Of a stretch of 64,000 nt of DNA, positions 30,212 through 31,175 are shown in pieces (within the stretch, counting starts at the first letter, position 1; each line of letters opens with the position of its first letter). The notes under the pieces are model-generated. The model ran no database searches. It was given only the letters and a program-made list of their open reading frames with translations, and was not told the origin of the DNA. The stretch is from positions 13,309 through 77,308 of the forward strand of contig JBAYJR010000006.1 in the NCBI GenBank assembly GCA_041665005.1, given 5' to 3'. The translations under genes and the position numbers were made by a program. The DNA is from Candidatus Buchananbacteria bacterium. GTDB taxonomy: Bacteria; Patescibacteriota; Patescibacteriia; 2-01-FULL-39-33; JBAYJR01.

Positions 30212-30243
30212 TAAAATTATAGACTAATAGTTAAAAAGAAAAA

Positions 30244-30268
30244 CGATCATTGTTGATCGTTTTTTTAT
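30244..30268 (+). terminator. Intrinsic terminator after the Mur ligase gene
   Basis: 'aacgatca-ttgt-tgatcgtt' + ttttttt. Confidence 0.6.
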
Positions 30269-30273
30269 TCAGA

Positions 30274-30342
30274 GTCTGATTCATCCAAAGATATGGTTTG
30301 CGCGTGAGGGTCTGGGTGCATGCTTTCCTTTTTCCTCAGCCA
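30274..30342. repeat. Perfect 13-bp inverted repeat (tccaaagatatgg ... ccatatctttgga) enclosing a 43-nt GC-richer loop
   Basis: Read directly: 30274-30286 and 30330-30342 are reverse complements. Confidence 0.6.
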
Positions 30343-30404
30343 TATCTTTGGACGTATTTTTAGTATAAATTAACAATAAAATATTGTCAAGAGTAGATAA
30401 ACCA

Positions 30405-30433
30405 TAAAAAAGACGGTCAAGGTTTTGACCGTC
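30405..30433 (-). terminator. Intrinsic terminator (minus strand)
   Basis: 'agacggtc-aaggtttt-gaccgtct', followed on the minus strand by ttttt. It implies a minus-strand transcript in 30436-30690. Confidence 0.5.
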
Positions 30434-30656
30434 TGCTTAGTAACTGGTGGAAAGGGGGTCGAGGCTGGTTTCGACAACCAAAGTGAGCTGTTTACTCAGA
30501 CAGCATGAAGTCTGTTTTGTTCAATGTCTTTGGTAAGACCCAATTGAATAAACCCCCATACTGGAACTTTGGCATACACCTTCCCACAAAGTACTAATAA
30601 TATTAGCAGAGAATTACTATTGCGTCAAGTAGAAAGGTGGGTTTTTTGAATAAAAA

Positions 30657-30690
30657 AGGGTGATTTTATTAATCACCCTGGGTTTTGACA
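30657..30690. terminator. Bidirectional hairpin terminator immediately 3' of the minus-strand tRNA cluster
   Basis: 'agggtgatt-ttat-taatcaccct' flanked by A-run and T-run. Confidence 0.5.
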
Positions 30691-30691
30691 G

Positions 30692-30784
30692 TGGAGCGGG
30701 AGAAAGGAGTCGAACCTTCGGCTTTTTGGTCGTCTAATTGTTTAGACAGAGAACCAAATACTCTACCCACTGAGTTACCCCCGC
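30692..30784 (-). tRNA. tRNA-like gene (Gly-like acceptor/discriminator U73, encoded CCA) with a 24-nt anticodon-loop region containing a 17-nt hairpin insertion
   Basis: Reverse complement: gcggggg-ta-actc-agtgggta-gagt-a-tttgg-[ttctctgtctaaacaattagacga]-ccaaa-aagcc-gaagg-ttcgact-ccttt-ctcccgc-t-cca. All arms canonical except the loop. If an insert is spliced out, one reading gives loop ttCTCga. Confidence 0.6.
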
Positions 30785-30789
30785 TTTGT

Positions 30790-30864
30790 TGGAGCGTATA
30801 GGATTTGAACCTATTATCTCTTGCTTGAAAGGCAAGCGCTTATCCTGATTTCAGCTTACGCTCC
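30790..30864 (-). tRNA. tRNA-Glu (anticodon UUC)
   Basis: Reverse complement: ggagcgt-aa-gct-gaaatcaggata-agc-g-cttgc-ctTTCaa-gcaag-agata-atagg-ttcaaat-cctat-acgctcc-a. Confidence 0.8.
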
Positions 30865-30890: not shown

Positions 30891-30966
30891 TGGTGAAGCG
30901 TATAGGATTTGAACCTACAACCTCTTTCTTTGCAAGAAAGGGCTCAACCAGTTGAGCTTACGCTTC
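30891..30966 (-). tRNA. tRNA-Cys (anticodon GCA), CCA encoded
   Basis: Reverse complement: gaagcgt-aa-gctc-aactggtt-gagc-c-ctttc-ttGCAaa-gaaag-aggtt-gtagg-ttcaaat-cctat-acgcttc-a-cca. The discriminator is A (the E. coli Cys identity element U73 is not present). Confidence 0.75.
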
Positions 30967-31175
30967 GCCATTAAAGAACAATAATTATCTTTAGAATATT
31001 ATCTTAGCGGATAGTTAGTTGTTTGTAAATATCTGCTCTAGTGGCTAGTTGTGGATAAGTTGTTGACTACCCAGAAAGTTGATTGTTTGTTATAATAGGG
31101 ATAATTATTGTCAAAATCGTAAAATTTTGGCTAAACAAAGCTATAATTCAGATTTTAAATAACCAGCAAGTCAAA

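What the first reader, a model, noticed from the sequence alone, without database searches (positions are those of the whole stretch)
30692..30784. tRNA gene with canonical arms but a 24-nt anticodon-loop region (17-nt hairpin insertion)
Seen in sequence (minus strand): every arm folds canonically. This includes a Gly-like acceptor/discriminator (gcggggg...ctcccgc-U-CCA), a standard D arm, a perfect tttgg/ccaaa anticodon stem, a 5-nt variable loop and the T arm gaagg-ttcgact-ccttt. The anticodon stem, however, encloses 'ttctctgtctaaacaattagacga' (24 nt), which itself contains a gtct(a)/(t)agac hairpin. No reading gives a 7-nt loop without removing about 17 nt. One excision gives loop ttCTCga.

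Established knowledge: bacterial tRNA introns are normally long group I introns, and short anticodon-loop introns are an archaeal/eukaryal feature.

Inference: this is either an unusual short intervening sequence, a tRNA with an expanded anticodon arm, or a degenerating tRNA copy. The gene sits in a three-tRNA cluster with its own terminators.
Basis: partly seen in the sequence, partly recalled or inferred. Interest (0 to 1): 0.6.

Follow-up and report, generated by a model that had tools for sequence, protein, structure and literature searches.

The report
Glycine-type tRNA gene with disrupted anticodon loop
A bacterial tRNA gene from an uncultured Patescibacteria (CPR) genome folds as a textbook glycine-type tRNA, but a 17-base palindromic hairpin sits where the anticodon loop should be; it is most likely a disabled or repurposed copy rather than a proven new kind of intron.

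Summary
Window 30692-30784 (minus strand) is a high-scoring tRNA (Rfam 56 bits). All four arms and the tertiary-contact bases are canonical, but the perfect UUUGG/CCAAA anticodon stem encloses 24 nt instead of 7. The surplus forms a 6-bp hairpin (GUCUAA-ACAA-UUAGAC).

The body is a tRNA-Gly body: 88 of 89 ordinary tRNAs sharing its acceptor, D-arm and T-loop pattern carry Gly anticodons. No 17-nt excision restores a Gly loop. The readings give CUC (Glu) or GAC/CAC (Val), with G or U at position 37. ARAGORN's "Glu(ctc)" call comes from a weak long-variable-arm parse that is 15 kcal/mol worse than the extended-arm fold.

There is no bulge-helix-bulge motif and no group I core, and the window encodes no splicing enzyme. 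The viral and metagenome pattern scans found no second copy of the insert. A syntenic relative lacks the whole three-tRNA cluster.

One jumbo-phage lineage has a tRNA-Gly(GCC) with a 24-nt hairpin at the same 36/37 junction.

Best reading (about 0.5): a non-decoding, tRNA-Gly-derived relic or tRNA-like RNA. A real short intervening sequence remains possible (about 0.15) but unsupported.

The parts
30692..30784 (-). Whole tRNA-shaped gene (93 nt, CCA encoded): a tRNA-Gly-type body with a disrupted anticodon loop
   Evidence: ARAGORN; Rfam RF00005 at 56.1 bits; cloverleaf is the minimum-free-energy fold
30778..30784 (-). Acceptor stem, 5' strand: GCGGGGG (G1-C72, C2-G71, G3-C70; G6-U67 wobble)
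   Evidence: Sequence; fold; Gly-type pattern
30760..30775 (-). D arm: ACUC-AGUGGGUA-GAGU, with A14, G18, G19 and A21
   Evidence: Sequence; Rfam alignment
30754..30758 (-). Anticodon stem, 5' strand: UUUGG
30730..30753 (-). 24-nt region enclosed by the anticodon stem: UUCUCUGUCUAAACAAUUAGACGA
   Evidence: Rfam shows a 21-nt insert relative to the model
30732..30748 (-). Surplus 17 nt, UGUCUAAACAAUUAGAC, placed after position 36. It contains a 6-bp hairpin, GUCUAA/UUAGAC, with loop ACAA
   Evidence: Unique in the window; hairpin pair probabilities 0.66-0.97 and p about 0.0035 for such a hairpin by chance
30725..30729 (-). Anticodon stem, 3' strand: CCAAA
30703..30719 (-). T arm: GAAGG-UUCGACU-CCUUU
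30692..30702 (-). Acceptor stem 3' strand CUCCCGC, discriminator U73, and encoded CCA
30657..30679 (-). Intrinsic terminator (9-bp stem plus U-tract) that closes the tRNA operon
30790..30864 (-). Upstream tRNA #2, loop CUUUCAA (anticodon UUC), with A8, A73 and no encoded CCA. Only 5 nt separate it from the target
   Evidence: Rfam 61.1 bits; missed by ARAGORN
30891..30966 (-). Upstream tRNA #1, anticodon GCA (Cys), with atypical A8 and A73. It is a paralogue of #2
   Evidence: a CPR tRNA-Cys for comparison has U8 and U73
31001..31029 (-). Promoter-like site (TTTACA-17-TAAGAT), 35 nt upstream of tRNA #1. A weak consensus match only

Best explanation
This is a tRNA-Gly-family gene, closest to the Gly(CCC) type. 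Its anticodon loop has been destroyed as a decoding element by a 17-nt palindromic insertion immediately 3' of position 36, together with changes at positions 35 (C to U) and 37 (A to G).

It lies last in a lineage-specific three-tRNA operon of a Candidatus Buchananbacteria (Patescibacteria/CPR) chromosome.

Inferred steps:
- The transcript is still processed as a tRNA. RNase P cleavage at its 5' end also releases tRNA #2, which ends only 5 nt upstream.
- The product is a stable tRNA-shaped RNA whose anticodon arm is a 13-bp helix with a CUCU bulge.
- That RNA cannot present a U-turn anticodon loop, and it lacks the C35 that GlyRS needs. It therefore does not take part in decoding.

It is a relic copy, possibly retained as a processing scaffold or for some non-decoding use. 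It is not an intron-containing functional tRNA.
For: Shown:
- The cloverleaf and tertiary-contact bases are canonical, at 56.1 bits.
- The body is Gly. Of 89 distinct ordinary tRNAs matching GCGGGNN-TAACTCAG..GGTAGAGT..GGTTCGANTCC, 88 have TCC/GCC/CCC anticodons and 87 have AA at positions 37-38. The closest is a Gly(CCC) with a CUUGG/CCAA(A) stem (L263).
- The target loop has no CC. Every 17-nt deletion gives CUC, GAC or CAC with G37 or U37.
- ARAGORN's own calls disagree with each other: Glu by the variable-arm parse, Val with the intron option on. The 7-nt-loop parse is 15 kcal/mol worse.
- No BHB motif is present.
- The window's proteins are housekeeping, with no RNA-splicing endonuclease or ligase.
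- GAG codons decode as Glu, so there is no recoding.
- The insert is unique. Nothing similar was found in the window, the 80 CPR loci, the IMG/VR scans, the JGI metagenome scan or GenBank phages.
- Relative L337 has MurE-rpoB adjacent with no tRNAs between them. The cluster is therefore a recent lineage-specific addition, and its other two tRNAs are also atypical (A8, A73).
Against: - All 21 stem pairs and all conserved D- and T-loop bases are intact, while both substitutions relative to the Gly consensus fall inside the 7 loop positions. That looks more like selection on the fold, or on a new use, than neutral decay.
- The gene keeps operon context, an encoded CCA and a strong terminator.
- The insert is a non-random perfect hairpin.
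- A phage tRNA-Gly(GCC) carries a hairpin insert at the same 36/37 junction with otherwise intact exons. Short inserts at this site may therefore be tolerated or processed.
- The rest of the MAG could not be inspected, so it is unknown whether an intact Gly(CCC) or Gly(UCC) gene exists.
Confidence: 0.5

Rival explanations
1. A genuine short intervening sequence. The 17 nt (or the hairpin plus flanks) are cut out of the precursor by a protein endonuclease that does not use a BHB motif. The halves are rejoined, for example by an RtcB-type ligase, giving a 76-nt tRNA with loop UUCUCGA (anticodon CUC).
For: - The rest of the tRNA is perfectly canonical.
- The insert is a compact, stable hairpin, located beside the anticodon as in protein-spliced introns.
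- Phage tRNA-Gly(GCC) L207/L336 has a 24-nt hairpin exactly between C36 and A37, with an intact UUGCC..AA loop, inside a working-looking tRNA array.
- Many IMG/VR tRNA genes carry short hairpins in the anticodon loop.
- Lak megaphages were reported to have 'enigmatic' tRNA introns (PMC6784885).
- tRNA #2, next door, has anticodon UUC, so a CUC partner would make an isoacceptor pair.
Against: - No BHB motif is present, and the only half-motif has the wrong geometry.
- The canonical 37/38 position would leave U37.
- The spliced loop UUCUCGA has a Glu anticodon on a Gly body and G37. That fits neither GlyRS (which needs C35 and C36, per established tRNA identity rules) nor typical tRNA-Glu.
- No endonuclease or ligase gene is in the 64 kb.
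- The only bacterial tRNA introns noted in the paper consulted are self-splicing group I introns, mostly over 200 nt (PMC8450103).
- No conserved second example of this insert was found.
Confidence: 0.15
2. A functional tRNA-like RNA with a deliberately extended anticodon arm. The acceptor/T minihelix and tRNA core are kept for RNase P, CCA and stability. The 13-bp arm with its CUCU bulge serves a non-decoding role, such as a protein-binding site, a decoy for a tRNA-targeting nuclease, or a processing scaffold for the operon.
For: - The stems and tertiary bases are fully conserved, while changes are confined to the anticodon loop.
- The extended arm is the dominant fold: the arm alone is -9.8 kcal/mol, and the hairpin pairs have probability 0.66-0.97.
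- The 5-nt spacing to tRNA #2 makes RNase P cleavage of the target part of tRNA #2's 3' maturation (sequence; inference).
- A separate class of Gly-like tRNA-shaped genes in viral contigs (L135 versus L138) keeps an anticodon-loop hairpin through compensatory changes. Such hairpins can therefore be selected.
Against: - No homologue of this particular arm exists in any collection scanned, so there is no covariation evidence here.
- No partner protein or complementary RNA was identified. Duplex energy with the neighbouring ncRNAs is no better than for shuffled sequences.
- A single occurrence in one MAG fits an accident as well.
Confidence: 0.2
3. An assembly or sequencing artefact in the MAG: the real gene would be an ordinary tRNA.
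For: - The metagenome scan did return two tRNA-Gly genes with obvious assembly duplications (L333, L334).
- The source is a single MAG contig with no independent copy.
Against: - The 17 nt are not a duplication of adjacent sequence and occur nowhere else in the window.
- Removing them still does not give a normal Gly loop.
- The insert is a clean hairpin inside an otherwise error-free gene.
Confidence: 0.06

Closest known systems
Bacterial tRNA-Gly (GCC/UCC/CCC isoacceptors)
   Same: GCGGG acceptor with G1-C72, C2-G71, G3-C70, and U73-CCA. TAACUCAG..GGUAGAGU D arm, 5-nt variable loop and GGUUCGANUCC T loop. 88 of 89 tRNAs with this body are Gly.
   Different: The anticodon loop is 24 nt. There is no C35-C36 pair (U35) and no A37, so the defining anticodon identity elements are missing.
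Protein-spliced tRNA introns of Archaea and Eukarya (BHB / position 37-38)
   Same: A short insert (tens of nt) in the anticodon loop, next to the anticodon, partly forming a helix.
   Different: No bulge-helix-bulge motif. The insert maps to 36/37 rather than 37/38. The host is bacterial and no splicing endonuclease is seen in the window.
Group I introns in bacterial tRNA anticodon loops (tRNA-Leu UAA, fMet, Ile CAU, Arg CCU)
   Same: A bacterial host and an interruption of the anticodon loop.
   Different: Those introns are mostly over 200 nt (PMC8450103) and need a catalytic core. This insert is 17 nt, and Rfam reports no intron family in the window.
Short hairpin inserts in phage tRNA genes (the 'enigmatic introns' of Lak megaphages, PMC6784885; IMG/VR examples L207/L336, L093, L094)
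   Same: A bacterial-type tRNA body with a short hairpin in the anticodon loop. L207 is also a TAACUCAG-type tRNA-Gly, with its insert at the same 36/37 junction.
   Different: In L207 the flanking loop bases are the intact Gly(GCC) loop UUGCC..AA. In the target they are not a Gly loop. The inserts share no sequence similarity. The target is chromosomal in a CPR bacterium.
tRNA pseudogenes and tRNA-like RNAs
   Same: A tRNA-derived gene lacking a usable anticodon loop, with body and anticodon mismatched.
   Different: Typical pseudogenes score low and have broken stems. This one scores 56 bits with every stem intact, and it sits in a promoter-terminator unit.

Membership tests
tRNA (Rfam RF00005) | Cloverleaf with acceptor, D, anticodon and T stems, scoring above the gathering threshold | tested here: met
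   56.1 bits against a gathering score of 29. The minimum-free-energy fold is the cloverleaf.
tRNA (Rfam RF00005) | Conserved tertiary bases: U8, A14, G18, G19, A21, G53, U54, U55, C56, A58, C61 | tested here: met
   All are present in the sequence.
tRNA (Rfam RF00005) | A 7-nt anticodon loop with U33 and a purine at position 37 | tested here: not met
   A 24-nt loop is enclosed by UUUGG/CCAAA. The only 7-nt parse costs 15 kcal/mol and has U37.
tRNA-Gly | Acceptor identity set: G1-C72, C2-G71, G3-C70, U73 | tested here: met
   Sequence. 88 of 89 tRNAs with the same body pattern are Gly.
tRNA-Gly | C35 and C36 in the anticodon | tested here: not met
   The loop starts UUCUC, which has U35. No CC occurs anywhere in the 24 nt.
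tRNA-Glu (CUC), the ARAGORN label | Anticodon CUC presented in a 7-nt loop | tested here: inconclusive
   This holds only after deleting 17 nt, or in a weak alternative fold. With the intron option, ARAGORN calls Val(cac) instead.
tRNA-Glu (CUC), the ARAGORN label | A Glu-type body | tested here: not met
   The body pattern retrieves Gly tRNAs almost exclusively and no Glu. It is unrelated to the adjacent UUC tRNA #2.
Archaeal/eukaryal protein-spliced tRNA intron | Bulge-helix-bulge (3-4-3) motif at the splice sites | tested here: not met
   Enumerating all 4-bp helices in the arm found no complete hBHBh' motif in either orientation.
Archaeal/eukaryal protein-spliced tRNA intron | Splicing endonuclease and RNA ligase encoded by the organism | not testable with these tools
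   None among the window's ORFs.
Bacterial group I tRNA intron | Catalytic core (P3-P9), mostly over 200 nt | tested here: not met
   The insert is 17 nt. No intron family was hit in Rfam.
tRNA pseudogene | Loss of a feature essential for decoding | tested here: met
   The anticodon loop is disrupted and the body and anticodon are mismatched.
tRNA pseudogene | Degraded stems or a low covariance-model score, with an intact functional copy elsewhere | tested here: inconclusive
   The stems are intact at 56 bits. Whether another Gly gene exists cannot be checked, because only 64 kb is available.
Repeated palindromic or mobile mini-element | Additional copies in the genome or in relatives | tested here: not met
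   The only copy in the window even at 3 mismatches, with 0.89 expected by chance. No copy in the 80 CPR loci.

The most novel reading that the evidence does not exclude
The 17-nt hairpin is a real, previously undescribed kind of short intervening sequence in a bacterial (CPR) tRNA. It sits at the 36/37 junction and is removed by a pathway that uses neither a BHB motif nor a group I core. The same junction is used in a jumbo-phage tRNA-Gly(GCC). Alternatively, the gene encodes a selected tRNA-like RNA with a 13-bp anticodon arm that has a non-decoding function.
Probability: 0.2. Interest if true: 0.8.

Novelty: new member of a known kind. Interest (0 to 1): 0.35.

Why it matters
The bacterial tRNA introns noted in the tRNAscan-SE 2.0 paper consulted here (PMC8450103) are self-splicing group I introns. 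If the insert were spliced, it would be a short non-group-I intron in a bacterial tRNA and would imply an unknown processing pathway in CPR bacteria and phages.

If it is a relic or a tRNA-like RNA, as judged most likely, its main value is practical. ARAGORN labels it 'tRNA-Glu(ctc)' from a weak parse on a Gly body, which would distort tRNA inventories for reduced CPR genomes. It also illustrates a rare but recurrent class of tRNA genes with hairpins in the anticodon loop that current annotation does not handle.

Tried and rejected
1. Synteny. RpoB-anchored retrieval of 80 Patescibacteria loci found no tRNA cluster upstream of rpoB.

2. Close relatives through MurE. The next-best protein is only about 60% identical. 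The source contig is not retrievable. Relative L337 lacks the cluster.

3. A generic 'tRNA with long D-to-T distance' pattern in IMG/VR saturated at 120 hits. These were mostly giant-virus Tyr introns and a heterogeneous set of phage oddities.

4. A Gly-specific insert pattern gave 15 viral hits and 4 metagenome hits. The real anticodon-loop-insert cases were the L207/L211/L335/L336 phage lineage (100% identical copies) and, among the viral hits, the separate L135/L205/L208/L213 class.

5. Patterns specific to the target's anticodon arm and T arm, and to the T arm and acceptor of tRNA #1/#2, gave nothing relevant in viral contigs. A BLAST against GenBank phages gave no match.

6. Repeat or mobile-element origin of the insert was rejected.

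7. GAG-to-Gly recoding was rejected.

8. Archaeal-type BHB splicing was rejected on structure.

9. The type II (long variable arm) reading was rejected on energy.

10. Base-pairing of the arm with the two neighbouring small transcripts is no better than for shuffled sequences.

11. The literature searches and the papers read described no short non-group-I intron in a bacterial chromosomal tRNA.

Full report
**Context.**
The window is a housekeeping stretch of a Patescibacteria (CPR) chromosome. ORFs around the finding encode RuvA, thymidylate kinase, a MurE-type ligase, RpoB and RpoC. Further out are ArgRS, a class I aaRS, FtsK, RecA, EF-P, SSB and S6. The MurE-like protein is 100% identical to NCBI MFA6428492.1 from a 'Candidatus Buchananbacteria' MAG. 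The next-best MurE homologue is only about 60% identical, and the best RpoB is 71-76%. The lineage therefore has no sampled close relative.

**The observation.**
On the minus strand, 30692-30784 reads GCGGGGG-UA-ACUC-AGUGGGUA-GAGU-A-UUUGG-[UUCUCUGUCUAAACAAUUAGACGA]-CCAAA-AAGCC-GAAGG-UUCGACU-CCUUU-CUCCCGC-U-CCA. ARAGORN reports a tRNA at exactly these coordinates. Rfam's tRNA model scores it 56.1 bits against a gathering score of 29, with a 21-nt insertion in the anticodon loop. U8, A14, G18, G19, A21, the G15-C48 pair, G53-C61, U54, U55, C56 and A58 are all present.

RNAfold returns the cloverleaf as the minimum-free-energy structure. The anticodon arm is extended to 7 bp (UUUGGUU/GACCAAA), a 4-nt bulge (CUCU), 6 bp (GUCUAA/UUAGAC) and an ACAA loop. 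The arm alone folds at -9.8 kcal/mol, and the inner hairpin pairs have probabilities of 0.66-0.97. A perfect 6-bp hairpin occurs in only 0.35% of the window's 17-mers, so the insert is a non-random palindrome.

ARAGORN's default mode does not model an intron here. It pairs UUUGG with UCUAA (one mismatch, one G-U), reads a 7-nt loop UUCUCUG, and places 22 nt in a variable arm. That is where the label 'tRNA-Glu(ctc)' comes from. With the intron option on, the same program calls tRNA-Val(cac) with a 17-nt intron. The variable-arm fold is -14.3 kcal/mol against -29.2 kcal/mol. The software labels are therefore inconsistent and should not be taken as the isotype.

**What the body is.**
I took the target's acceptor start, D arm and T loop as a pattern, GCGGGNN-TAACTCAG-N(1-3)-GGTAGAGT-N(26-56)-GGTTCGANTCC, with the anticodon left free, and scanned IMG/VR. 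Ninety distinct sequences were recovered, of which 89 have a normal 7-nt loop. Of these, 88 carry Gly anticodons (TCC 67, GCC 17, CCC 4), and 87 have AA at positions 37-38. The closest is a Gly(CCC)...A-CUUGG-UUCCCAA-CCAAA... (L263).

The target is therefore a tRNA-Gly body with the full acceptor identity set (G1-C72, C2-G71, G3-C70, U73). Its loop, however, begins UUCUC and ends GA. Relative to a Gly(CCC) loop UUCCCAA it has C35U, A37G, and 17 extra nucleotides after position 36. No deletion of 17 nt gives a Gly loop. The possibilities are UUCUCGA or UUCUCUA (CUC), UUGACGA (GAC) and UUCACGA (CAC), all with G or U at position 37. A Gly body with U35 lacks the C35 that GlyRS requires (established tRNA identity rules). 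A CUC anticodon on this body does not look like tRNA-Glu either.

**Could it be spliced?**
I enumerated every 4-bp helix in the arm and asked for the 3-nt bulges and flanking helices of a bulge-helix-bulge motif. No complete motif exists in either orientation. The only partial one (UCU bulge plus GUCU/AGAC) has the bulge on the wrong side of its helix strand. The canonical 37/38 position would leave U37. Seventeen nucleotides cannot hold a group I core, and Rfam finds no intron family. The bacterial tRNA introns noted by the tRNAscan-SE 2.0 paper are self-splicing group I introns, mostly over 200 nt (PMC8450103). No endonuclease or RNA ligase is encoded in the 64 kb. My literature searches and the papers I read described no short non-group-I intron in a bacterial chromosomal tRNA. 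The nearest report is the 'enigmatic' tRNA introns of Lak megaphages (PMC6784885).

**Is it conserved or repeated?**
The 16-nt palindrome occurs once in the window even at 3 mismatches and not at all in 80 Patescibacteria loci. Those RpoB-anchored loci have no tRNA cluster upstream of rpoB. In relative L337 the order is RuvA-MurE-(425 nt)-RpoB-RpoC, with no tRNA or Rfam hit in the spacer. In the window the spacer is 1.16 kb.

The three tRNAs, and the structured RNA next to them, are therefore a lineage-specific addition. A metagenome-wide scan for TAACTCAG-type Gly bodies with 7-37 extra nucleotides between the D and T arms found four contigs. Two are assembly duplications. Two are the phage described in the next section. 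Target-specific patterns in IMG/VR and a BLAST against GenBank phages found nothing. There is thus no comparative evidence for or against selection on the insert.

**An analogue.**
Contigs L207, L211, L335 and L336 are one phage lineage (100% identical where they overlap; the longest contig is 352 kb). They carry a TAACUCAG-type tRNA-Gly(GCC) inside a tRNA array. Its loop reads UUGCC[UGAAGACAUUAAGGUGUCUUGAAU]AA, a 24-nt hairpin insert exactly between C36 and A37. An insert-free counterpart is L229. This is the same junction as in the target. In the phage, however, the exonic loop bases are intact, which is what an intron (or a very recent insertion) looks like. The target's exonic loop bases are not intact, and that difference weighs against splicing for the target.

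More broadly, IMG/VR holds many tRNA genes with short stable hairpins in the anticodon loop, for example Arg(GCG) UUGCGA[GGGGGAAACCCC]A. It also holds a Gly-like class (L135 versus L138) whose loop hairpin is kept through compensatory changes. Such inserts are therefore a rare but real phenomenon, and their processing is not known to me.

**Other checks.**
- GAG codons in rpoB and rpoC align with Glu in relatives (58% E; Gly is not among the top five), so the code is standard.
- The arm shows no better-than-random pairing with the two neighbouring small transcripts.
- A promoter-like site lies 35 nt upstream of tRNA #1, and a strong terminator directly follows the target. The three genes therefore look like one transcription unit.
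- tRNA #2 ends 5 nt before the target's G1. RNase P cleavage of the target would therefore also define the 3' trailer of tRNA #2. This is an inference, and it offers one reason why the acceptor/T half might be kept.

**Verdict.**
- Most likely (about 0.5): a tRNA-Gly-derived gene that no longer decodes. It is a relic copy in a recently acquired, atypical tRNA cluster, still transcribed and folded as a tRNA with a 13-bp anticodon arm.
- The intactness of every stem, with all changes confined to the loop, keeps a selected non-decoding tRNA-like role alive (about 0.2).
- The phage analogue keeps a true short intervening sequence alive (about 0.15).
- An assembly artefact is unlikely (about 0.06).
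- The finding is real and odd, but it is a single occurrence without comparative or expression support. Interest is moderate to low.

Noticed in passing
window 30405-30630 (minus strand): An apparent independent small-RNA gene. It has a promoter-like TTGACG-17-TAATAT (30628-30600) and a 10-bp terminator (30434-30411). The 201-nt stretch folds at -67 kcal/mol, z = -5.15 against shuffles, and matches no Rfam family. It is absent from the MurE-rpoB spacer of relative L337.
   Followed up: partly
window 30239-30390 (minus strand): A third small transcription unit. A near-consensus promoter (TTGACA-17-TATACT) and a terminator (30264-30239) bracket a tiny ORF (MAEEKGKHAPRPSRANHIFG, or 31 aa from TTG).
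   Followed up: no
window 30790-30864 and 30891-30966 (minus strand): The other two tRNAs of the cluster are paralogues of each other, with the same acceptor and T arm. Both have A8 and U21 instead of U8 and A21, and both have A73. One has anticodon GCA (Cys), although tRNA-Cys normally has U73 (a CPR example, L033, has U8 and U73). The other has UUC (Glu), lacks an encoded CCA, and is missed by ARAGORN although Rfam scores it 61 bits.
   Followed up: partly
L207 6115-6210(-), L211, L335, L336 (IMG/VR 3300025357_000616; Ga0208257_1000001, 352 kb): A phage tRNA-Gly(GCC) inside a tRNA array carries a 24-nt hairpin insert exactly between C36 and A37, with an otherwise intact loop (UUGCC[...]AA). 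ARAGORN does not call it.
   Followed up: partly
L135 10281-10358(+), L205, L208, L213 and L138 (IMG/VR): Gly-like tRNA-shaped genes (GCGGGG...CCCCGC-U-CCA). The anticodon stem GCGGA/UCCGC encloses AAAG/C, a hairpin, and UACCUAA. The hairpin differs between the two versions by compensatory changes (UCCGG/CCGGA versus GAGGG/CCCUC), with a T-loop-like ..UCGAAA loop. Every 7-nt reading has A at position 33.
   Followed up: no
L093, L094, L142 and others among L081-L160 (IMG/VR): Many viral-contig tRNA genes have short stable hairpins (GAAA or UUCG tetraloops) inside the anticodon loop, for example Arg(GCG) UUGCGA[GGGGGAAACCCC]A and Lys(UUU) CUUUUA[UUUAAAAAGUA]A. ARAGORN's isotype calls for them are erratic.
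   Followed up: no
L333 543-631, L334 402-497(-): Metagenome contigs with tRNA-Gly genes containing internal partial duplications of the gene itself. These look like assembly artefacts and mimic 'insert-containing' tRNAs in pattern scans.
   Followed up: yes
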